Positions 3,469 through 27,095 of a stretch of DNA of 34,885 bases are shown here, piece by piece. Within the stretch, counting starts at the first letter, position 1, and every line of letters starts with the position of its first letter. Under the pieces are notes generated by a model. That model saw nothing but the letters and a program-made list of their open reading frames with translations. It did no database searches and was not told where the DNA came from. Source of the stretch: Nitrospirota bacterium (GTDB lineage: Bacteria > Nitrospirota > Thermodesulfovibrionia > Thermodesulfovibrionales > UBA1546); NCBI GenBank assembly GCA_004298625.1, contig SCSY01000159.1, positions 1 through 34,885 of the forward strand, given 5' to 3'. The position numbers were made by a program, and so were the translations under genes.

Positions 3469-4800
3469 ATGGATAAATTTTTCGAGAGGATAAGCATCGA
3501 GGGCAAAAGCCTGCGCAACAACCTCACCGTTATAGCGACGCTTATGTATGTGCTGCCTTCTGCCGTAATGCTTTATATTTTGCACAAGGAAAATATCCTG
3601 CCGGATGTCATAACGCCCTACATTTTCATGTATAGCCTTACCATCCTGCTTGCGCTTGCAGGCCTGTTCATTCTGAGGAGAATTTTTCTGGATTTTCTAA
3701 GAATAATCAATTCCGTGAAAATGGTTGAATCAGGCAGCATAAATACAATAGAGATTTCCAAAAGCGCCGAAGAACTCAGGGATATAGCGGTTATATTCAA
3801 TAAATTCATAAAAAGGCTTGAGGAGACAACGCTTCTCCTGGATAAAGAAACGGAAAAACTTAAGCAGGAGACGTTAAGGCGTGAAAAGGCGGAATGGGAA
3901 TTGCGCAAGCTGAATGAGGAACTCGAATTGAAGATTAAAGAAAGGACCAGGGAGCTTGAAACAGCCAGGGACGCTGCAGAGGCTGCCAGTTGCGCCAAGA
4001 CGGAGTTTATAGCAAACATGAGCCATGAGATAAGGACGCCGCTCAACTCCATAATAGGATTTTCCGAGGTTCTGCATGACGGCCTGTTTGGACCGTTGAA
4101 TGAAAAGCAGAAGGAATATGTGAGCGATATACTGCTTGGCGGAAGAAACCTGCTTGAACTTATTCTGAATATTCTCGATTTTTCAGGGCTGGAATCAGGC
4201 GCCCTTAGAATTCAAAAAACAAGGTTTTTATTGAAGGATATTTTAAATTCATCCGTAACAGAGATGTCTGAAGTTCTAAAGACCCGCCATATAAATGTAA
4301 CACTTGAAATAGAACCCGATGCAGGCAAGGAGATCGAGGCGGATCGGGAAAAACTAAAACGGATAATATCGAATCTTATGAAAAATGCCGTGAAGTTCAC
4401 GCCGGATGGGGGCTTCGTGAGCGTGAGCGCACGGAAAGGGATTAGGGATTTGGGATTAGGGATTGGCGAAAAAGAACTAACCCCGGGACCCCAATCCCCA
4501 ACCCCTGATGCCGATTTCATAGAAATCAGCGTCGCCGACACCGGCATCGGAATAAAATCAGAGGACTTTCCAATGCTTTTCAAAGAATTTACACAGCTTG
4601 AAACGCCGTATACGAAAAAATACAAGGGCGCGGGTCTGGGGCTTGCGCTGACAAAGAAACTTGTAGCGCTTCTCGGCGGAAAGATATGGGTCGAAAGTGA
4701 ATTCGGCAAGGGAAGCAAGTTCACTTTTGCGGTGCCCATAAAGCAGGAAGCGCCCCGGGTTTCCGAATTCTTTCATGGAGGAACTAATGAATCCGACTAA
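3469..4800 (+). CDS. Membrane sensor histidine kinase (2 TM, coiled coil, HisKA, HATPase_c); paralogue of the 20..3091 kinase core
   Basis: H-box [13 protein letters not shown] box [12 protein letters not shown]1 DTGIGI, G2 GAGLGLALT. The DHp/CA region aligns residue by residue with kinase 1, for example GFSEVL, RFLLKD, IEPDA..EIEAD, VSVSAR and [11 protein letters not shown]. Confidence 0.9.
4438..4505 (+). repeat. In-frame heptamer-array inverted repeat: GGGATTN x4, spacer, C-rich arm
   Basis: GGGATTA GGGATTT GGGATTA GGGATTG, then gcgaaaaagaact, then AACCCC GGG ACCCC AATCCCC AACCCC. GGGATTG (4459-4465) pairs exactly with CAATCCC (4492-4498). Translated as [23 protein letters not shown]. Confidence 0.8.
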
Positions 4801-6340
4801 ACCCAAAATACTTTGTGTTGACGATGAGCCTGCAAATCTTAAACTCCTCGAAGCAATGCTTGAGCCGAGAGGTTATGAGGTGGTCAAGGCTGAGGACGGC
4901 ATAGAGGCGCTGGAGAAGATTAAAGAGCACAATATCGCCCTTGCGCTTCTGGATGTTATGTTGCCGAAGGTCAATGGTTTCGAGGTCTGCAGGATGATTA
5001 AAGGCGATGAAATGTACAGGCATATCCCCGTAGTTTTTGTTACCGGCCTGACGGCGCAGGAAGACAGGATAAAGGGCATTGCGGCAGGCGCGGAGGACTT
5101 TGTATCCAAACCCTTTGACCAGGGAGAGATACTTGCGAGGATAGATATGCTTCTCAAGGTCAGGGATCTGAACAACAGGCTCAATTCCGCATATAACACG
5201 ATAACAAATCTGATAACCTTCGGGAAAAACATAGCAATGACTTTTGACCCGCTTGATTTCGACTTCCTGTCGAGGATTGACAGCAGCATTGCCCGGTTTA
5301 TAAAAAACTCGCCCGACATGATTGACAAGCCTCAGATTGTCGTTGTCGGCATAGCCTCGGCTTCTTCACCCCTACTCGTTAGGGGAGGCGCGGCAGGAGG
5401 ATGGCAGTGGTATAGGTATGAGTCGGACTCAGGCGAGTTGAGAAGGACGCCGATTGATTCCGGCATCTATAAGTATCTGGAATTGCCTCCTGACGGCAGT
5501 TCAAAAACAGCCTTTTATAACGAGGCTGATTTAAGGGGATCGGGGTTGGGATTGTTTACTGACAAGCTTGAGACGATGTCGGTCAAGGCGTCGAATATGG
5601 TCTGTTTTGTAAGCGGAGCTTTCTGCGTCTTTGCCGTTAATTATGCCAGGGCTGTTTCCATGTTCGATGCAGAGGTGTTAAACAGCATAGTGATGCAGGA
5701 CCTTTATTTAAAATCCCTTGCGTCTCAGGTAAAGGAGACGGAGGATGCCTTCGATTACCTTGTATTTGCCCTTGCAAGGGCGGCGGAAGCCAATGACGAG
5801 GATACAGGGAATCATATCATGAGGGTCGGCGAGTATTGCGCGCTTATAGCACGGCAGCTCGGGATGCCGGAGAAGTTTTCGGATATTTTCCGCATCCAGG
5901 CCACCCTCCACGACGTTGGAAAAATCCATGTGTCTCCGCTGGTGCTCAAAAAACCGGGGAAGCTTACGCCGGAGGAATTCGAGCAAATGAAAAGGCATCC
6001 CGTATATGGAGCCATGATACTCGGAGATCATGTTAGGCTTAAACTTGCAAAATCCATAGCCCTTACGCATCACGAAAGATGGGATGGAAGCGGTTATCCT
6101 TACGGGCTGAAGGGCGAGCAGATACCTATAGAAGGAAGAATATTAAACATAGCAGACCAGTATGATGCCCTGAGGAACCCGCGTCCCTATAAACCTGCCC
6201 TGGATCACCCGACAACATATAAAATAATCGCAGAGGGCGACGGCAGGACCTTGCCGGGCCATTTCGATCCTGCAGTGCTGAAGGCATTTAAAGAAACCGT
6301 CTCACAATTTGAAGATATTTATGAAAGGCTGAAGGGATAG
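4775..6340 (+). CDS. Response regulator with C-terminal HD-GYP phosphodiesterase domain (RpfG-like); central ~200 aa of unknown function
   Basis: REC motifs [26 protein letters not shown] motifs [29 protein letters not shown]. Overlaps the kinase 2 stop. An alternative ATG at 4787 follows GGAGGA. Confidence 0.9.
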
Positions 6341-14566: not shown

Positions 14567-14628
14567 CAGTTATCAGTTATTAGTTGTCAGTTTTTGGACT
14601 AACAACTAAAAACTAAGAACTAAAAACT
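14567..14628 (+). repeat. Intergenic heptamer-array hairpin, CAGTTAT-type x4 then AACTAAN-type x4; terminator-like
   Basis: CAGTTAT CAGTTAT TAGTTGT CAGTTTT tgg act AACAACT AAAAACT AAGAACT AAAAACT, followed by TTTTT. TTAGTTGT (14580-14587) pairs perfectly with ACAACTAA (14603-14610). Confidence 0.8.
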
Positions 14629-14959: not shown

Positions 14960-16000
14960 ATGAGTGCTAAGACCATTAATTTCAGGAAAGCGCCTGGAAA
15001 AATCCTCATAATCAAACCGAGTTCTCTCGGCGACATTGTCCACAGCCTGCCGTTTCTTAATGTCTTAAGGGAGAGCTTCCCAAAATCCGAGATTCATTGG
15101 GTTGTTGCAAGAGGGCTCGAGGGCCTGCTTGAAGGCCATCCGATGATAAACAAGCTCTGGGTCATAAACAAGGATGAATGGAAAAAGATAAAGAATGTTA
15201 AGGGCACGGTAAGGGAACTGGCAAAATTATTTGGGGCCTTGAAGAACGAGAGATTTGACCTTGTGGTTGACCTTCAGGGACTCCTGCGAAGCGGAATTCT
15301 GGCGGCGGCAACACGCTCTCCCTTGCGGATAGGGTTCAGCGAGGCAAGGGAAGGCGGCAGTCTATTTTATACGCACAGGGTTAAAGGAGGAAAGGAGATA
15401 CACGCCGTGGACAGGTATCTTAAGATTGCGCAATCACTCGGCTGCAATATTTCTGATATCAGATTTCCTTTTCCATTATCTTTCAACTCTTCACTTTCAA
15501 CTCCTAACTTTCAACTTCCAAAGGAATACGCCGTGATTGTTCCCGGCGCAAGATGGCAGACCAAGAGATGGCCTGCCGGGAGATTTGGAGAGTTGGCGTC
15601 AATGTTGTCAATAACGTCTCTTATTGTCGGCGGAAAAGCTGATATCGAGATATCAAATAGAGTTGCAGCAGGCTCCAAAGGCAATGCCATATCTCTTGCA
15701 GGCAAAACGAGCATTAAAGACCTGATAGATATAATGAGAAACGCTCAGTTTGTTGTAAGCAATGATTCAGGCCCCATGCATATTGCGGCAGCCCTCGGCG
15801 TGCCTGTCTTTGCGATATTCGGCCCTACGAATCCGTCAAGGACAGGGCCTTACGGCAAAGGGCATGTAATTATAAGAAAAGGGCTTGAATGCTCTCCGTG
15901 CTATAAAAAAAGCTGCAAAGATATCAGGTGCATGGCTGCCGTAAGCGTTAAAGAAGCCGCTGAAATTATCGGGCGGAGAGCGCATAAAAAAGGTTATTGA
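14960..16000 (+). CDS. Glycosyltransferase family 9 (LPS heptosyltransferase-like)
   Basis: ILIIKPSSLGDIVHSLP near the N-terminus and NDSGPMHIAAALGVPVFAIFGPTNP near the C-terminus. Confidence 0.85.
   Translation: MSAKTINFRKAPGKILIIKPSSLGDIVHSLPFLNVLRESFPKSEIHWVVARGLEGLLEGHPMINKLWVINKDEWKKIKNVKGTVRELAKLFGALKNERFDLVVDLQGLLRSGILAAATRSPLRIGFSEAREGGSLFYTHRVKGGKEIHAVDRYLKIAQSLGCNISDIRFPFPLSFNSSLSTPNFQLPKEYAVIVPGARWQTKRWPAGRFGELASMLSITSLIVGGKADIEISNRVAAGSKGNAISLAGKTSIKDLIDIMRNAQFVVSNDSGPMHIAAALGVPVFAIFGPTNPSRTGPYGKGHVIIRKGLECSPCYKKSCKDIRCMAAVSVKEAAEIIGRRAHKKGY
15480..15521 (+). repeat. In-frame 14-nt x3 tandem repeat (CTTTCAACTYYYMA), heptamer-periodic
   Basis: CTTTCAACTCTTCA CTTTCAACTCCTAA CTTTCAACTTCCAA. 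42 nt, translated SFNSSLSTPNFQLP in the inter-domain linker of the GT9 enzyme. Confidence 0.85.
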
Positions 16001-21894: not shown

Positions 21895-23295
21895 GTGAAA
21901 AACTTGACCGATTCTGAAAATCAAATCCTTATACTCGGCGGGGGACTCACAGGGCTTTCAGCCGGATATGTCCTTACAGGCTCGGGGTTCCGCGTCAAAG
22001 TGTTCGAGAGGGACGATGCAGTCGGCGGACTTTCAAAGACTATTATCCATAACGGCTTTCGTTTTGATTTAGGCGGGCACAGATTTTTTACAAAAGATAA
22101 TAAAGTAAATGATTTCGTGAAAAGCCTGATGGATGAAGAACTGATTGAGGTTGCGCGCAAAAGTAAGATTTATATGCGCAACAGGTATTTCGATTATCCG
22201 CTTAAACCCGTAAATGCCATATTCGGTATGGGCCTCCCGACTACACTTAAGATTATATCCGACTATGGCCTTGAGAAGATTAAAAAACTCATAAAAGAGC
22301 CGGATAATATTTCTCTCGAAGACTGGGTAGTCGGTAATTTCGGCCGCAAGATGTTTGACATCTATTTCAAGGAATACAGCGAAAAGGTGTGGGGCATCAA
22401 CTGCGACAGGATTAGCTCTGAATGGGTGGAGCAGCGCATAAGAGGGCTTTCCCTTGCAAAGGCCGTTAAGAACGCCTTTTTCAAGGTGAATGGGAAAGAT
22501 GTGCCGACACTTGCCGACAGGTTTCTATATCCGCAACTGGGCATAGGGCGCATTTCCGACAGGTTGAGGGAGGAGATAGACAGGCACAATGATGTGTTTA
22601 CCGGCACAGGCGTGAAATGTATTAACCACTCTGATTACAGGATAGAGGGCATTGAGGTTGGAAACCCGTTGCATTCCGGTGTAATACATGGAAGGGAAAT
22701 TATATCAAGCATACCAATGAATAAGCTGGTCCTGATGCTTAATCCGTCTCCGCCTGAGGATATTCTCGATGCAGCTTTAAAACTGAAGTTCAGGGATATT
22801 GTCATAGTGACGGTAATGATTGACAGAGAAAGAGTTACGGATCAGACATGGATATATGTCCCTGAAAAGAAGATACCTTTCGGCAGGATCCACGAGCCTA
22901 CGAACTGGAGCAGGAAGATGGCCCCCGAAGGCAAGACGCTTATCGTGACGGAGTTTTTCAGCTTTAAAGGCGACGGGATATGGAATGAGAACGATGAACG
23001 GCTCGTTGCTGTTACTGTTGAGAATCTGGAAAAACTTGGATTTATTAAGAAGCATGAGGTGATAGACAGCGCCGTGGTAAGGGTGCCCGGGGCCTATCCT
23101 TTGTTTGAGGTGGGATATAAAGAATTGTGCGATAAATTATATGATTATTTAAGCAGGTTCGGGAATCTCCATATCGCGGGCAGGGGTGGGATGTTCAGAT
23201 ACTATAATATGGACCATGCGATTGAGTCCGGGATAAAGGCGGCGGAGAAAATTTTAATCAAGGCTGACAGCTATCAGCTATCAGCTATCAGCTAA
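21895..23295 (+). CDS. FAD/NAD(P)-dependent oxidoreductase (amine-oxidase / UDP-galactopyranose-mutase-like fold)
   Basis: GTG start. Dinucleotide fold ILILGGGLTGLSAGYVL..VKVFERDDAVGGL. FDLGGHRFF. Confidence 0.7.
   Translation: MKNLTDSENQILILGGGLTGLSAGYVLTGSGFRVKVFERDDAVGGLSKTIIHNGFRFDLGGHRFFTKDNKVNDFVKSLMDEELIEVARKSKIYMRNRYFDYPLKPVNAIFGMGLPTTLKIISDYGLEKIKKLIKEPDNISLEDWVVGNFGRKMFDIYFKEYSEKVWGINCDRISSEWVEQRIRGLSLAKAVKNAFFKVNGKDVPTLADRFLYPQLGIGRISDRLREEIDRHNDVFTGTGVKCINHSDYRIEGIEVGNPLHSGVIHGREIISSIPMNKLVLMLNPSPPEDILDAALKLKFRDIVIVTVMIDRERVTDQTWIYVPEKKIPFGRIHEPTNWSRKMAPEGKTLIVTEFFSFKGDGIWNENDERLVAVTVENLEKLGFIKKHEVIDSAVVRVPGAYPLFEVGYKELCDKLYDYLSRFGNLHIAGRGGMFRYYNMDHAIESGIKAAEKILIKADSYQLSAIS
23266..23293 (+). 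repeat. Heptamer array (G/A)(A/T)CAGCT x4 forming the last codons and the stop of the oxidoreductase
   Basis: GACAGCT ATCAGCT ATCAGCT ATCAGCT, with TAA at 23293-23295. Encodes the tail SYQLSAIS. The next ATG is at 23298. Confidence 0.8.
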
Positions 23296-23297
23296 AA

Positions 23298-24791
23298 ATG
23301 AGATGCGCGTTAGTAATCCCCTCATGGGTTCCTGAAGATATATTCTCTTCAAAGACGGCAAGCTCGCAGATTAATTACTGGCAGCCGTTGGGCACGCTAT
23401 ACGTTGCCGCTGTGCTTCAGAGGGCCGGGCACGAGGTTAAATTCCTAAACGGCGCATTTATTACCCACGATGAAATACTCAGAGAAATAAAAAAATTCAA
23501 ACCGGAATTTATCGGTATTTATTCAACAACCTTCGGCTGGCAAAAGGCAAAGCAGACCGCAGAAGATATAAGGAAATTAACCCCACCGGTACTCCCCTTA
23601 TCTAAGGGGAGGAGCAAGGAGGGGTTGCCATTTATATGCGCAGGAGGCCCTTATCCTATTGCAGTGCAGGAGCGTTGTCTTGAGGACGCCGGAGAATGTT
23701 TTGATGCCATAGTTACAGGAGAAGGCGAGTTCACATCTCTTGAAATAATAGAGCGGCTTCAAGCCGGTAAAAACCTTGATGGAGTCCCGGGCGTTGTTTA
23801 TAGGGAAAATGGAAAGATCATTAAAAATCCGCAAAGACCATTAATCGCTGATCTCGACTCACTGCCGTTTCCAGCAAGAGAGCTTCTGGGCGACGCTGAT
23901 TTATACATACCGCCGCCTGCGACATATAAGAGAAAACCCGTAGCGGTCTTGATGACATCCAGAGGCTGCAACAGGAGATGCATATATTGCTTCCAGATAG
24001 ACAAAGAGAGAAAAAGCGGCGTCAGATACCGCAGCGTCGAAAACGTGTTGAAAGAAATAGAGCTTTGCATTGCGCAGGGCTACAGGGAGATAAAATTCAT
24101 AGATGACACGCTGGCTGCCGATTATGACCGGGCGATGAGCATAGCTCAGGAGATAAAAAAGAGAAGACTTGATTTCACATGGTTTGCATCTGCGTGTGTG
24201 AATCAGGTTGACAGGCCGCTTCTTCAGGCATTCAAAGACGCCGGGTGCTGGGCCATACTTTTTGGAGCAGAAAGCGGGGTGCAAAAAAACCTTAATGCGA
24301 TAAAAAAAGGCACAACCCTTGAACAGATTCAAAAGGCTGTAAAGGCAGCCAAGGATGTCGGACTCAAGGTCAGCGCTCCTTTTATGTTCGGCATTCCCGG
24401 AGAGACATTTGAGGAAGGGCTTCAGACTATCGAATTTGCCGTAGACCTTAACCCTGATATGGCAAACTTTCATGCCATAACCCCATTCCCCGGCACATAC
24501 CTATACGACAATCTCGATAAATACGGAACCATATCAAATGAGCTCACGGACTATACATATCAGGGCGCTGCATTTATTCCGCATACCATGACAAGGGATG
24601 AAATCCTTAAACTCAGGCAGATAGCATTTAAGAGATTCTATTCCCGACCGTCGTTCATCCTTAAAAAACTTCTTGAACTAAGGAGCCTGAATGATCTCCT
24701 TGTTGCAGCCAAAAGCGCGAAGAGCCTGTTCTGGCTGTGGACAAAGACGGGTCTGTTCAGGAAGAAAAAAATTCCAACCCGCACAGGCTAA
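23298..24791 (+). CDS. B12-binding-domain radical SAM enzyme
   Basis: N-terminal cobalamin-domain layout (IGIYSTTF.., ICAGGPYP). Radical SAM CNRRCIYC. 497 aa. Confidence 0.85.
   Translation: MRCALVIPSWVPEDIFSSKTASSQINYWQPLGTLYVAAVLQRAGHEVKFLNGAFITHDEILREIKKFKPEFIGIYSTTFGWQKAKQTAEDIRKLTPPVLPLSKGRSKEGLPFICAGGPYPIAVQERCLEDAGECFDAIVTGEGEFTSLEIIERLQAGKNLDGVPGVVYRENGKIIKNPQRPLIADLDSLPFPARELLGDADLYIPPPATYKRKPVAVLMTSRGCNRRCIYCFQIDKERKSGVRYRSVENVLKEIELCIAQGYREIKFIDDTLAADYDRAMSIAQEIKKRRLDFTWFASACVNQVDRPLLQAFKDAGCWAILFGAESGVQKNLNAIKKGTTLEQIQKAVKAAKDVGLKVSAPFMFGIPGETFEEGLQTIEFAVDLNPDMANFHAITPFPGTYLYDNLDKYGTISNELTDYTYQGAAFIPHTMTRDEILKLRQIAFKRFYSRPSFILKKLLELRSLNDLLVAAKSAKSLFWLWTKTGLFRKKKIPTRTG
23579..23626 (+). 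repeat. In-frame GC-rich nested palindrome (48 nt)
   Basis: AACCCC accggta CTCCCCTTA tc TAAGGGGAG gagcaagga GGGGTT. Translated TPPVLPLSKGRSKEGL. Confidence 0.85.
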
Positions 24792-25490: not shown

Positions 25491-25534
25491 AAAAAAAAAA
25501 GAAAGCCCCCTTGCTCGGCAAGGGGGCTTTTGCG
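25491..25534. terminator. Bidirectional rho-independent terminator shared by the convergent HPF-CSD and cspA genes
   Basis: A10, then AAAGCCCCCTTGC tcg GCAAGGGGGCTTT, then TTTT-containing tail. Confidence 0.85.
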
Positions 25535-25979: not shown

Positions 25980-27095
25980 TCATCGGATTTGAATATATTC
26001 TTTTGCAAGCTTATGATACAGCTTCGGATTGAACAGGATGTTTGTCATAAAATAACACTCGTGTGTGCAAAAGCATTGTCTTTTCCGTATTGAATCAATT
26101 ATCCGCCGGGCTTTTTCCGACTGGATAATTCTCTCCATGTCGTAATCATAATTCTTTACATTTCCAAAACTGTCCGTAAGGATCTCGCATGGGAAGACAT
26201 CGCCATTTTCCGTCAGCACAAGGTTCAGCCTGCCGGCATAGCACGGGATAAGGCGTTTTTGTTCGAGCAGGGTCTGATGTATCAGGCGGCGCTGCAGAAT
26301 ATCCTGCGCGGCCTTAATGCGCGCCCCTTTGAATCTGTAGGTCGGCGCTTTTTTATCTCTAAGGTTTTTTTCAAGCTTTTCAATGGCAAGAAAATATTTT
26401 CCAATATCAACATCCTTGTAGCTTTCGTCCGGGATATTTCCCCGTATCAGAGAGATTGTATGTGTCTTTATTTTTTTAAGCGAGCCGGCAAAGTCAATTA
26501 TCTCATCCATCCTGTCCTGATTCTTCGAGCAAAAAACCGTATTGATCCCCAGTTCGAAATTAGGGTATTTGTCAATGAGGTTTTCAAGCAGGTGGTATGT
26601 CTCCAGCGTTTTCCCGAAACTTCCCTGAGTATTCCTGATTTCATCATGCAGCCCGTAAAGGCCGTCAATGGAGAGTTTTACGACAATTATGCTTTTCGGA
26701 GAATTTTTAAGTATCTGCTCTGTCCTTTCTTTAATCAGTTCGGGAAGCAGGCCGTTTGTAGGGAAGAGCATTATGGACGGTTTATTATTTTTATAAAAAA
26801 TTCTGCTTATCTCGACAAGGTCGTCTCTGAGAAATATTTCGCCTCCTGAAAAGGCGAGCCAGAGAAGGCTGCCGAGCGATTTTGATATTTTCTGTATTTC
26901 ATCGAGCGTGAGCTCATCCGATACCCCCCCTCCGCCCCCCCTTGTTAAGGGGGGGATTGGGGGGGTGCTTTTCAAATAAAAACAGAACGGGCATTTTGAA
27001 TTACACCTTTTGGTTACAAAAAATGTAAGATGAATCGGTCTTCTTTTATAGAAGATAGAAGGAGTATGGCGTAATAACCGGTGCATTAGACTCAC
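25980..27095 (-). CDS. Radical SAM enzyme with C-terminal SPASM/twitch-type Cys cluster
   Basis: CNSKCPFC near the N-terminus. C-terminal IPCYAG..VFPCE..CFCTHEC. Confidence 0.8.
   Translation of the reverse strand: MSLMHRLLRHTPSIFYKRRPIHLTFFVTKRCNSKCPFCFYLKSTPPIPPLTRGGGGGVSDELTLDEIQKISKSLGSLLWLAFSGGEIFLRDDLVEISRIFYKNNKPSIMLFPTNGLLPELIKERTEQILKNSPKSIIVVKLSIDGLYGLHDEIRNTQGSFGKTLETYHLLENLIDKYPNFELGINTVFCSKNQDRMDEIIDFAGSLKKIKTHTISLIRGNIPDESYKDVDIGKYFLAIEKLEKNLRDKKAPTYRFKGARIKAAQDILQRRLIHQTLLEQKRLIPCYAGRLNLVLTENGDVFPCEILTDSFGNVKNYDYDMERIIQSEKARRIIDSIRKRQCFCTHECYFMTNILFNPKLYHKLAKEYIQIR
26924..26965. repeat. In-frame C7/G7 nested palindrome (42 nt)
   Basis: CCCCCCC tccg CCCCCCC ttgttaa GGGGGGG att GGGGGGG. 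Translated on the minus strand as PPIPPLTRGGGGGV, directly after the CX3CX2C motif. Confidence 0.85.

What the first reader, a model, noticed from the sequence alone, without database searches (positions are those of the whole stretch)
23579..23626. 48-nt GC-rich nested palindrome inserted in frame in the B12-binding domain of a radical SAM enzyme
Seen: outer stem AACCCC/GGGGTT and inner stem CTCCCCTTA/TAAGGGGAG. The element is exactly 16 codons (TPPVLPLSKGRSKEGL). It separates IRKL from PFICAGGPYP, which otherwise looks like a contiguous Rossmann-like segment. The core CCCCTT-N-AAGGGG and its peptide (P-L-S-K-G) match the element at 26924 and, more weakly, the one at 5369.

Inference: this looks like a miniature palindromic element family that survives in coding DNA only when its length is a multiple of three.
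Basis: partly seen in the sequence, partly recalled or inferred. Interest (0 to 1): 0.7.

Follow-up and report, generated by a model that had tools for sequence, protein, structure and literature searches.

The report
Small palindromic repeat inserted inside genes
The 48-base palindrome is a worn copy of a ~44-base GC-rich hairpin repeat scattered through this bacterium's relatives and several other phyla, mostly inside genes, where it is translated as a floppy proline/glycine surface loop.

Summary
Window 23579-23626 is a nested palindrome inside a B12-binding radical SAM gene. It lies in the loop between helix 3 and strand 4 of the B12 domain. 111 of 120 orthologues have no insert at this site.

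It is a diverged member of a repeat family defined here: AATCCCCCC-n3-CCCCCCTTT-n3-AAAGGGGGG-n2-GGGGGGATT, about 44 nt. A covariance model built without this copy finds it at E=5e-5. The same model finds a canonical copy at 26921-26969 at E=1.6e-17. The suggested third copy at 5369 is not detected, although that site is a lineage-specific insert.

In about 170 kb of related Nitrospirota DNA, 12-14 of 16 copies lie inside genes. Hits came from Nitrospirota, Nitrospinota, Methylomirabilota, Desulfobacterota-type, Proteobacteria, Dehalococcoidia and anammox MAGs, with 30-69% GC.

Copies decay, lose internal segments, flip in place, nest, and swap with empty alleles on short recombination patches. 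I found no target duplication, no strand bias and no linked transposase.

Best reading: selfish, non-autonomous palindromic DNA tolerated in permissive protein loops. It behaves like Rickettsia palindromic elements but is three times smaller and spans phyla. How it moves is unknown.

The parts
23579..23626 (+). Diverged copy of the C6/G6 nested-palindrome repeat (the finding). It has long internal spacers of 7 and 9 nt, and each inner arm carries a compensated C:G to T:A change (CTCCCC/GGGGAG).
   Evidence: Sequence. Hairpin scan. Model R1 gives 21.5 bits, E=5e-5 on the - strand and 15.5 bits on the + strand. DNA fold -15.4 kcal/mol, z=-3.9. Orthologous filled alleles include a canonical-type copy in L007.
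23579..23584 (+). Outer left arm, AACCCC.
   Evidence: Pairs with 23621-23626 in the MFE fold.
23592..23600 (+). Inner left arm, CTCCCCTTA.
   Evidence: Perfect 9-bp stem with a 2-nt loop.
23603..23611 (+). Inner right arm, TAAGGGGAG.
23621..23626 (+). Outer right arm, GGGGTT.
23298..24791 (+). Host gene: B12-binding radical SAM enzyme, 497 aa, intact. The insert corresponds to residues 95-111, in the loop between helix 81-94 and strand 112-116.
   Evidence: ORF. Pfam. 120 orthologues in conserved synteny next to an amine oxidase gene. AlphaFold2 model: coil at 95-111 and pLDDT<50 for residues 97-108.
26921..26969 (+). Canonical copy of the same family: ACCCCCCC-tccg-CCCCCCCTT-gtt-AAGGGGGGG-att-GGGGGGGT. 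It lies in frame in the radical SAM/SPASM gene 25980-27095 (-) and encodes TPPIPPLTRGGGGGV just after the CxxxCxxC motif.
   Evidence: Sequence. Model R1 gives 59.9 bits, E=1.6e-17. Fold -19.6 kcal/mol, z=-3.65. The insert is absent from L009 and from most of 120 orthologues; decayed or shortened versions occur in the neighbouring clade.
5369..5385 (+). Possible decayed relic: CCCCTA-ctcgt-TAGGGG, peptide [13 protein letters not shown], in the response-regulator/HD-GYP gene 4775-6340. Membership is not demonstrable.
   Evidence: 96 of 120 orthologues lack these ~10 residues, and the closest relative shares SSPLLVKGG. There is no model hit at E<=10, and the fold z is -0.8.

Best explanation
The 48-nt palindrome is an old, partly decayed copy of a dispersed, non-autonomous repeat of about 44 nt. 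The repeat is a single long hairpin with two stems: AATCCCCCC / GGGGGGATT outside and CCCCCCTTT / AAAGGGGGG inside. Short unpaired spacers separate the stems, and the loop is 3 nt.

Shown by the data:
- The family exists.
- It lies mostly inside genes.
- This copy belongs to it.
- This copy sits in a surface loop, between helix 3 and strand 4 of the B12 domain.
- It is absent from most orthologues.
- It is read through by the ribosome as a Pro/Gly-rich, low-confidence loop.
- Orthologous copies decay by point changes and in-frame internal deletions, can invert in place, and can receive further insertions in the loop.
- Filled and empty alleles are exchanged between close lineages on short patches of roughly 50-130 nt.

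Inferred:
- The family is selfish DNA that is copied to new sites as a hairpin-forming strand by a factor acting in trans. That factor could be an unidentified strand-specific nuclease/transposase, or template switching during replication or repair.
- Insertion is untidy. Only derivatives whose net length change keeps the frame, and which fall in permissive loops, survive in genes.
- The C and G runs make this easy, because CCC and GGG codons give Pro and Gly and most frames lack stop codons.
- After insertion, homologous recombination spreads or removes copies among related lineages.

The copy in this window has no demonstrated function for the enzyme.
For: Family and membership:
- 16 non-redundant copies with the same four-run architecture occur in about 172 kb of window plus related loci.
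- Model R1, built without this copy or its orthologues, hits 23578-23627 (E=5e-5) and 26921-26969 (E=1.6e-17).
- The model finds 20 sites in about 142 kb of Nitrospirota DNA at E<0.01.

Insertion status:
- 111 of 120 orthologues lack any insert at this site, and 7 carry related inserts.
- DNA of the filled alleles shows one homologous but rearranged element.
- L001 (filled) and L005 (empty) are about 96% identical outside an indel with sharp edges.
- L008 (filled) and L250 (empty) are about 99% identical outside a ~110-nt patch.
- The PgeF site has 100% identical flanks, with the 44-nt element against 17 unrelated nt.

Intragenic habit:
- 12-14 of 16 copies lie in called genes.
- Of 125 canonical copies from a genome scan, 60% lie in ORFs of at least 600 nt, against 77% for random positions.

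DNA identity matters, not peptide:
- Three codon phases are used (48/19/9), giving three different peptide types.
- Both orientations are equally frequent relative to the coding strand (31:30).

Hairpin maintained:
- 171 alignment cells carry changes on both sides of a pair, against 58 +/- 5.5 in shuffles and 10-52 in slid controls.

Dynamics:
- A decayed left arm in L007 at the amine oxidase site.
- A 36-nt deletion removing one outer arm, L235 against L163.
- A 27-nt net difference at the PgeF site.
- In-place inversion in L251 against L006.
- A 10-aa insert inside the loop of the element.
- Nested double elements, in L240 and P0145.

Permissive site:
- The AlphaFold2 model gives coil at 95-111 and pLDDT<50 for 97-108, between well-predicted helix 81-94 and strand 112-116.

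Breadth:
- Hits were 55 Nitrospirota, 37 delta/Desulfobacterota-type, 10 Proteobacteria, 9 Nitrospinota, 4 Methylomirabilota, 2 Dehalococcoidia, 2 Brocadiales and 1 archaeal MAG.
- Locus GC spans 0.30-0.69.
Against: - No mobilising gene was found. No protein family is enriched beside 120 element-bearing loci.
- The only RAYT-like ORF in 2 Mb (L223) is flanked by a different, GTAG-tagged repeat.
- No target-site duplication is visible. Conservation stops at (W)AAT...ATT(W).
- No clean insertion junction was recovered. Every filled/empty pair is a replacement of 9-17 nt by the element. All observed polymorphism could therefore be allele exchange by recombination rather than recent transposition.
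- The near-identical 9-mers across genomes of 30-69% GC are not what lineage-specific selfish repeats such as REPs usually show. This leaves room for a conserved function.
- All host genomes are MAGs, so some taxon labels may be wrong.
- The covariation count used an alignment fitted to the model and containing both strands of a palindrome, which inflates it.
Confidence: 0.72

Rival explanations
1. Functional nucleic-acid signal. The hairpin would be kept by selection as an RNA or DNA structure, for example a translation pause, an mRNA stabiliser, or a binding site for a nucleoid or topology protein. It would be recruited into genes because it is useful there.
For: The stems covary beyond controls. 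The same 9-mers are kept in genomes of 30-69% GC and in several phyla. The window copy at 26921-26969 is still a near-perfect palindrome, although its gene has diverged to 80% identity from the nearest relative that shares it.
Against: Copies are absent from most orthologues at every site examined. Orthologous copies decay or are deleted without loss of the host ORF. They sit in unrelated genes at unrelated positions and in both orientations (31:30). Rfam has no matching family in the window. The finding's own copy has mismatched, lengthened spacers.
Confidence: 0.1
2. Recombination-driven drive rather than transposition. The motif would behave like a DNA-uptake or recombination-favoured signal. 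It would spread because fragments carrying it are preferentially taken up or recombined, replacing the homologous stretch of the recipient.
For: Every filled/empty pair is a replacement with sharp or short-patch boundaries centred on the element. Filled alleles are scattered in three clades of the gene tree, interleaved with empty ones, and neighbouring substitutions are linked to them. There is no transposase, no target duplication and no strand bias.
Against: Known uptake signals are 9-12 nt and arise by point mutation, not as 44-nt units. New sites in unrelated genes still need a copying step. The same unit in distant phyla would need a shared uptake specificity. Identical copies occur at two intergenic sites 1415 nt apart in L247, which points to copying. 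Nothing is known about competence in these organisms.
Confidence: 0.08
3. Adaptive protein loop. The Pro/Gly-rich peptide would itself be the selected feature of the radical SAM enzyme, for example a flexible linker or interaction motif.
For: The insert is in frame and the gene is intact. Related inserts persist in several lineages.
Against: It is absent from 111 of 120 orthologues. The family is translated in three phases, giving different peptides. The insert has pLDDT<50 and lies on the helix-to-strand loop; from general knowledge of flavodoxin-like B12 domains, this is the side away from the cofactor. Sequences at the same site vary by deletion and duplication.
Confidence: 0.03
4. Local accident. 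The palindrome would have arisen in place, for example by template switching on a quasi-palindrome, and would only resemble the other sites by chance or through GC-rich bias.
For: The copy is atypical, with spacers of 7 and 9 nt and 4-6 base runs instead of 6. Short GC hairpins such as the terminator at 25502-25530 share the same core.
Against: An independent model finds it at E=5e-5. Orthologous alleles in L007 and L001 have the canonical architecture at the same site. The family has hundreds of copies elsewhere.
Confidence: 0.02

Closest known systems
Rickettsia palindromic elements (RPEs; Ogata et al. 2000, as summarised in PMC10969869)
   Same: Both are palindromic repeats inserted in frame in many unrelated housekeeping genes, translated as extra peptide segments at positions compatible with the fold, and regarded as selfish DNA. 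Both decay in place.
   Different: RPEs are about 100-150 bp, restricted to Rickettsia, and each family has a conserved peptide frame. The present unit is about 44 nt, is built from C6/G6 runs, is used in three frames, and occurs in several phyla. No sequence similarity was tested or is expected.
REP / REPIN elements mobilised by RAYT (Y1 HUH) transposases
   Same: Both are short GC-rich imperfect palindromes of similar size (REPs are 20-40 nt) with many dispersed copies. In both, the hairpin is maintained by compensatory changes, and there is no coding capacity.
   Different: REPs are by definition extragenic (quoting PMC12306157). They carry a GTAG or CGTC tag (PMC3733652, abstract) and flank their RAYT gene. 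Here most copies are intragenic, the ends are AAT/ATT, and the only RAYT-like gene seen is flanked by a different GTAG repeat.
Small dispersed repeats of heterocyst-forming cyanobacteria (Elhai et al. 2008, Genome Research; recalled from memory, not retrieved here)
   Same: Both are very small palindromic repeats found in coding and non-coding DNA, with nested insertions, no known transposase, and co-occurrence with tandem heptamer repeats. Tandem heptamer repeats are also present in this window.
   Different: As I recall, those units are about 21-27 nt and cyanobacterial. The sequence relationship was not tested.
Mobile GC clusters and double-hairpin elements of fungal mitochondria, and coding palindromes of Nematomorpha mitochondria (PMC6649704, abstract)
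   Same: These are GC-rich palindromes that occur optionally inside protein-coding genes in frame. From memory, for the yeast var1 gene they are transferred between alleles by gene conversion.
   Different: They are organellar and unrelated in sequence. The Nematomorpha repeats are much longer (up to 284 bp).
Intrinsic (Rho-independent) terminators
   Same: Both are GC-rich hairpins. The window's terminator at 25502-25530 even shares the CCCCTT...AAGGGG core.
   Different: The finding lies inside a continuous ORF, has no T run after the stem, and is not picked up by the terminator scan.

Membership tests
C6/G6 nested-palindrome repeat family (defined here) | Four-run architecture: an outer stem plus an inner stem, separated by short unpaired spacers, with a short loop. 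| tested here: met
   23579-84/23621-26 and 23592-600/23603-11. The spacers are 7 and 9 nt, against the usual 3 and 2.
C6/G6 nested-palindrome repeat family (defined here) | Significant score with a covariance model built from other copies. | tested here: met
   21.5 bits, E=5e-5. The canonical window copy scores 59.9 bits.
C6/G6 nested-palindrome repeat family (defined here) | (W)AAT...ATT(W) termini and C6/G6 runs. | tested here: inconclusive
   The ends are AAC...GTT and the runs are 4 bases. Orthologous copies in L001 and L007 have AAT/AAC ends with C5-6 runs, consistent with decay.
REP / REPIN-RAYT | Extragenic location. | tested here: not met
   This copy and 12-14 of 16 related copies lie in genes. 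60% of 125 canonical copies lie in ORFs of at least 600 nt.
REP / REPIN-RAYT | Conserved GTAG or CGTC tag at one end. | tested here: not met
   Flank profile: AAT/ATT only.
REP / REPIN-RAYT | Association with a RAYT gene flanked by the repeats. | tested here: not met
   One RAYT-like ORF was found in 2 Mb, and it is flanked by a different GTAG repeat. The search used sequences recalled from memory, so sensitivity is limited, and whole genomes were not available.
Rickettsia palindromic elements | In-frame insertion of a palindromic repeat in protein-coding genes. | tested here: met
Rickettsia palindromic elements | Length about 100-150 bp, a Rickettsia host, and family-specific consensus sequences. 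| tested here: not met
   The unit is about 44 nt and the host is a Nitrospirota MAG.
MITE | Terminal inverted repeats. | tested here: met
   The whole unit is an inverted repeat.
MITE | Target-site duplication. | tested here: not met
   No direct repeat lies beyond the palindromic AAT/ATT. Filled/empty pairs show replacement, not duplication.
MITE | A parent insertion sequence with matching ends. | not testable with these tools
   This needs complete genomes. Nothing of the kind was found in 2 Mb of fetched loci.
Intrinsic terminator | GC-rich hairpin followed by a T run, located downstream of a gene. | tested here: not met
   The finding is inside an ORF, has no T run, and is not listed by the scan, whereas 25502-25530 is.
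Rfam RNA families | A match at gathering threshold. | tested here: not met
   0 matches in the window.

The most novel reading that the evidence does not exclude
The C6/G6 nested palindrome is a previously undescribed, cross-phylum superfamily of about 44-nt elements. On this reading they are among the smallest mobile DNAs known, live mainly inside protein-coding genes, and propagate without any linked transposase by a templated, replacement-type mechanism (hairpin-guided template switching or short-patch recombination). They would also flip in place and nest within one another. They would then be a general source of Pro/Gly-rich loop insertions and of indel polymorphism in the proteomes of groundwater and sediment bacteria.
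Probability: 0.35. Interest if true: 0.8.

Novelty: new variant of a known kind. Interest (0 to 1): 0.6.

Why it matters
- It explains a large share of the short indels between orthologous proteins in these lineages.
- It flags a recurrent source of odd Pro/Gly peptides and spurious small ORFs in MAG annotation.
- It offers a second system, much smaller and far more widespread than the Rickettsia elements, for asking how selfish DNA colonises coding sequence and which protein sites tolerate it.
- The replacement-type alleles, the in-place inversion and the lack of any linked transposase make the copying mechanism an open and testable question.
- For this particular enzyme the insert is probably harmless decoration.

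Tried and rejected
- **Rfam** at gathering threshold on the window gave no match.
- **Gene families enriched near 120 element-bearing loci:** only ordinary housekeeping genes turned up.
- **Y1/RAYT transposases in 2 Mb** (queries recalled from memory): one hit, and it is tied to a different GTAG repeat.
- **Target-site duplication or flank motif:** none beyond (W)AAT/ATT(W).
- **Unit-length test.** I compared element length mod 3 in coding and non-coding copies. The distributions are similar and 44 nt dominates both, so the unit length itself is not the filter.
- **AT-duplication idea.** I considered that AT at both ends is a 2-nt duplication, which would make a 42-nt in-frame insertion. No empty site supports it, because net differences are 27-66 nt.
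- **Orientation bias** relative to the coding strand: none.
- **Clean empty sites.** I searched all fetched loci and 90% protein clusters. Only replacement-type pairs were found.
- **Composite transposon idea** for two identical copies in L247: they flank nrdG and a glutaredoxin-like gene, not a transposase.
- **PDB sequence search** to place the loop in a solved homologue: matches cover only the radical SAM core.
- **Literature.** Seven completed full-text searches found no description of this family. The library lacks most subscription journals, so prior description cannot be excluded.
- **Assembly artefact** is rejected, because the same filled alleles occur in independent assemblies (L001/L002 and L003/L004).
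Full report
**1. What is at the coordinates**

Window 23579-23626 reads AACCCC-ACCGGTA-CTCCCCTTA-TC-TAAGGGGAG-GAGCAAGGA-GGGGTT. A hairpin scan confirms a perfect 9-bp inner stem with a 2-nt loop. As single-stranded DNA the 52-nt stretch folds into the nested hairpin at -15.4 kcal/mol, z = -3.9 against dinucleotide shuffles.

It lies inside ORF 23298-24791 (+), 497 aa. Pfam finds B12-binding at residues 27-146 and Radical_SAM at 220-381. The core pattern CCCCTT-N0-10-AAGGGG occurs three times in the window against 0.05 expected.

One of those three matches, 25507-25525, is an ordinary bidirectional terminator between convergent genes.

The window is a whole 34,885-bp contig of a Nitrospirota MAG.

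**2. It is an insertion**

Of 120 orthologues (76-100% identity, conserved synteny next to an amine oxidase gene), 111 read ...DxRKxxG-xxV-FICAGGPYP with no extra residues. Seven carry related inserts at exactly this site, for example IIPLHPPLNKGGIEGGYNGRSKEGLPRP, ITPPILPLNKRRSKEGLPRP and MTPPLLPLKEGLPRP. Two carry unrelated inserts.

At the DNA level the filled alleles are versions of one element:
- L007 has a canonical-looking copy: AACCCCCC-ttcat-CCTCCCTTA-aa-TAAGGGGGG-aataga-GGGGTT.
- L008 is closest to the window.
- L003 has lost the centre.
- L006 has lost the left inner arm.
- L001 carries an extra half-copy.

The net gain in the window relative to empty relatives is 36 nt. The empty alleles hold a 5-codon linker that the filled ones lack.

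An AlphaFold2 model (mean pLDDT 68.9, pTM 0.74) gives helix 81-94, coil 95-111 and strand 112-116, with pLDDT<50 for residues 97-108. The insert therefore sits in the loop between helix 3 and strand 4. From general knowledge of flavodoxin-like B12 domains, this is the side away from the cofactor.

**3. The family**

Scanning the window and nine related loci for C-rich hairpins revealed a recurrent unit: AATCCCCCC - 3 to 5 nt - CCCCCCTT(T) - 1 to 5 nt - (A)AAGGGGGG - 2 to 6 nt - GGGGGGATT.

Sixteen non-redundant copies occur in about 172 kb. Fourteen fall in called genes: amine oxidase, this radical SAM gene, GT2, PMT_2, peptidase C14, DUF4384, YjeF, PgeF, three GT9 genes, a second radical SAM gene, and the window's radical SAM/SPASM gene. 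Two of these lie at extreme N-termini, where the gene call may be over-extended. So 12-14 of 16 copies are intragenic.

I built a covariance model from 67 copies, excluding the finding and its orthologues. In the window it finds the following:

| Window region | Score | E-value | Reading |
|---|---|---|---|
| 26921-26969 | 59.9 bits | 1.6e-17 | canonical copy |
| 23578-23627 | 21.5 bits | 5e-5 | the finding, diverged copy |
| 25500-25532 | about 19 bits | about 4e-4 to 7e-4 | terminator, matched through its outer stem only |
| 5369 | no hit | none at E <= 10 | not detected |

The finding is therefore a diverged member, and 26924 is a canonical one. The 5369 site is a lineage-specific insert: 96 of 120 orthologues lack about 10 residues, and the nearest relative shares SSPLLVKGG. 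Its DNA no longer resembles the family.

**4. Breadth**

Many of those copies are one-armed.

Counting the record titles gives:

| Group | Loci |
|---|---|
| Nitrospirota | 55 |
| Delta/Desulfobacterota-type | 37 |
| Other Proteobacteria | 10 |
| Nitrospinota | 9 |
| Methylomirabilota | 4 |
| Dehalococcoidia | 2 |
| Brocadiales | 2 |
| Archaeal MAG | 1 |

The GC content of these loci spans 0.30-0.69, so mis-binning of one lineage cannot explain the spread. All are MAGs and the sample is truncated.

Of 125 canonical copies, 60% lie in stop-free ORFs of at least 600 nt, against 77% for random positions in the same loci. The family is only mildly depleted from coding DNA.

**5. Anatomy**

- **Boundaries.** Conservation ends at (W)AAT...ATT(W). 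Position -1 is A in 96/96 copies and +1 is T in 95/96; further out the flanks are random. No direct repeat is visible.
- **Polarity.** The commonest spacers are TCG, TCA or TTG opposite AT, so the unit has a polarity.
- **Length.** AAT-to-ATT length is 44 nt in 46 of 76 coding copies and in 14 of 34 non-coding copies. The unit is therefore not a multiple of three.
- **Codon phase.** Three phases are used (48/19/9). They give NPPxPPFxKGGxGGF, xIPPxPPLxKGGWGD and KSPLxPLxQRGxxG type peptides.
- **Orientation.** Both orientations are equally common relative to the coding strand (31:30), and most frames of the unit lack stop codons.
- **Stems.** The stems covary: 171 cells are changed on both sides, against 58 +/- 5.5 in shuffles and 10-52 in slid controls. 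The alignment was fitted to the model and includes both strands, which inflates the count. The window copy itself carries a compensated pair (CTCCCC/GGGGAG).

**6. Dynamics**

- **Decay.** At the amine oxidase site L007 keeps the right arms, but its left arms have drifted from C to T. The SPASM site shows a graded series from TPPIPPLTRGGGGGV to PPSTGEINN.
- **Deletion.** L235 lacks 36 nt, including one outer arm, relative to L163. This is the likely origin of one-armed copies.
- **Inversion in place.** L251 carries the GT9 copy in the opposite orientation to L006 and other members of the same 90% protein cluster. The spacers and loop are reverse-complemented and the flanks are unchanged.
- **Nesting.** There is a 10-aa insert inside the loop of the element in three members of one cluster. 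Double elements occur in L240 and P0145.
- **Hot spots.** The same protein loops receive different small repeats in different lineages (GT9, PMT_2 and SPASM sites).

**7. Filled against empty alleles**

| Pair or site | Flank identity | Empty allele | Filled allele | Net difference |
|---|---|---|---|---|
| L001 vs L005, radical SAM site | about 96% | 16 nt | 82 nt | 66 nt |
| L008 vs L250 | about 99% outside a ~110-nt patch | - | - | - |
| PgeF site, L003 vs L252 | 100% | 17 unrelated nt | 44-nt element | 27 nt |
| L240 vs L155 | about 84-85% | 9 nt | 75 nt | 66 nt |

The L008/L250 patch is centred on the element and extends about 20 nt to each side.

In the gene tree, filled alleles occur in three clades interleaved with empty ones, and neighbouring substitutions are linked to the filled state.

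Net differences are 36, 66, 39, 27 and 66 nt. All are multiples of three but they are not constant. Either insertion is untidy and only frame-preserving outcomes survive, or what we see is mainly exchange of old alleles by short-patch recombination. The data do not separate the two.

**8. Mobilising machinery**

- No protein family is enriched next to the elements.
- The single RAYT-like ORF in 2 Mb (L223 3073-3567) is bracketed by a classical GTAG repeat, not by this element.
- Two identical copies 1415 nt apart in L247 flank nrdG and a glutaredoxin-like gene. This shows recent copying or homogenisation, but not a composite transposon.

**9. Interpretation**

The best-supported reading is selfish, non-autonomous palindromic DNA that is tolerated in permissive protein loops. 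The finding is an old and decaying copy of it.

It works like the Rickettsia palindromic elements but is not one of them. It resembles REPs in size and hairpin maintenance but fails their defining features: extragenic location, GTAG/CGTC tag and RAYT linkage.

Seven completed full-text searches found no description of this family. The library is incomplete, so I rate it a new variant of a known kind rather than categorically new.

The rivals each explain part of the data. They are a functional hairpin, a recombination or uptake drive, an adaptive peptide, and a local accident. The patchy distribution, the decay, the use of three frames and both orientations, and the model match count against them.

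Noticed in passing
window 4438-4512: Four tandem GGGATT(A/T) heptamers are followed about 30 nt later by inverted AATCCCC-type units. They lie inside the ATPase domain of the histidine kinase ORF 3469-4800 (peptide [10 protein letters not shown]...PQSPTP). This is a second kind of small palindromic repeat in coding DNA: 4 matches against 0.4 expected. The DNA fold is not better than shuffles (z -0.6).
   Followed up: partly
window 14568-14628 and 23269-23293: AGTTATC heptamers x3 are followed by their inverted complement x3 in an intergenic spacer (fold z -2.6). AGCTATC x3 forms the last codons (SYQLSAIS*) of the amine oxidase ORF 21895-23295. A related QLSAVS insert occurs in the PMT_2 orthologue of L009.
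   Followed up: partly
window 15494-15524; L006 3393-3441; L009 2007-2054; L003 3704-3790: The same linker of the GT9 heptosyltransferase holds a CTTTCAACT-type repeat in the window, the C6/G6 element in L006 and L009, and a different GC-rich palindrome (GCAGGTCGCCTCGGGCGAC...) in L003. It is an insertion hot spot for several repeat families.
   Followed up: partly
L223 3040-3600: A RAYT-like ORF (164 aa, HQHIII motif) is bracketed by GTAG-tagged palindromes GTAGCC(A/G)CAGGCTTTAGCCTGCG. This looks like a classical REP/RAYT pair in a Nitrospirota MAG. The neighbouring birA-like and nagA-like genes each carry two C6/G6 elements.
   Followed up: partly
window 25502-25530; L009 12144-12170: A bidirectional intrinsic terminator lies between convergent genes. 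It is conserved in the syntenic relative with a compensated stem change (GCCCCC/GGGGGC against GTCCCC/GGGGAC).
   Followed up: yes
P0006 and P0166 (orthologues of the two window radical SAM genes): A third insert type (SPLSLPTGQAGSPSRGEDG...PPLRGGDEGEGD) occurs at the same loops where the window carries C6/G6 copies. This suggests yet another GC-rich repeat family.
   Followed up: no
L247 22-66 and 1437-1481: Two 100% identical 45-nt copies lie 1415 nt apart in a Syntrophaceae MAG. They are intergenic and flank nrdG and a glutaredoxin-like gene upstream of nrdD.
   Followed up: yes
IMG/VR loci L010-L129: Many viral-labelled contigs carry one-armed versions (inner hairpin plus a single GGGGGGATT box). 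Some carry long left spacers such as gctacgctg. I did not check whether these contigs are real phages or misclassified cellular DNA.
   Followed up: no
L148 (cobyric acid synthase-like ORF, - strand from 1251): One gene carries two separate element-derived segments: KNPPPPPFDKGGNTHLTPLDRGEESPPLKKGDIGGL and ENPPIPPLEKGGKGGF.
   Followed up: no
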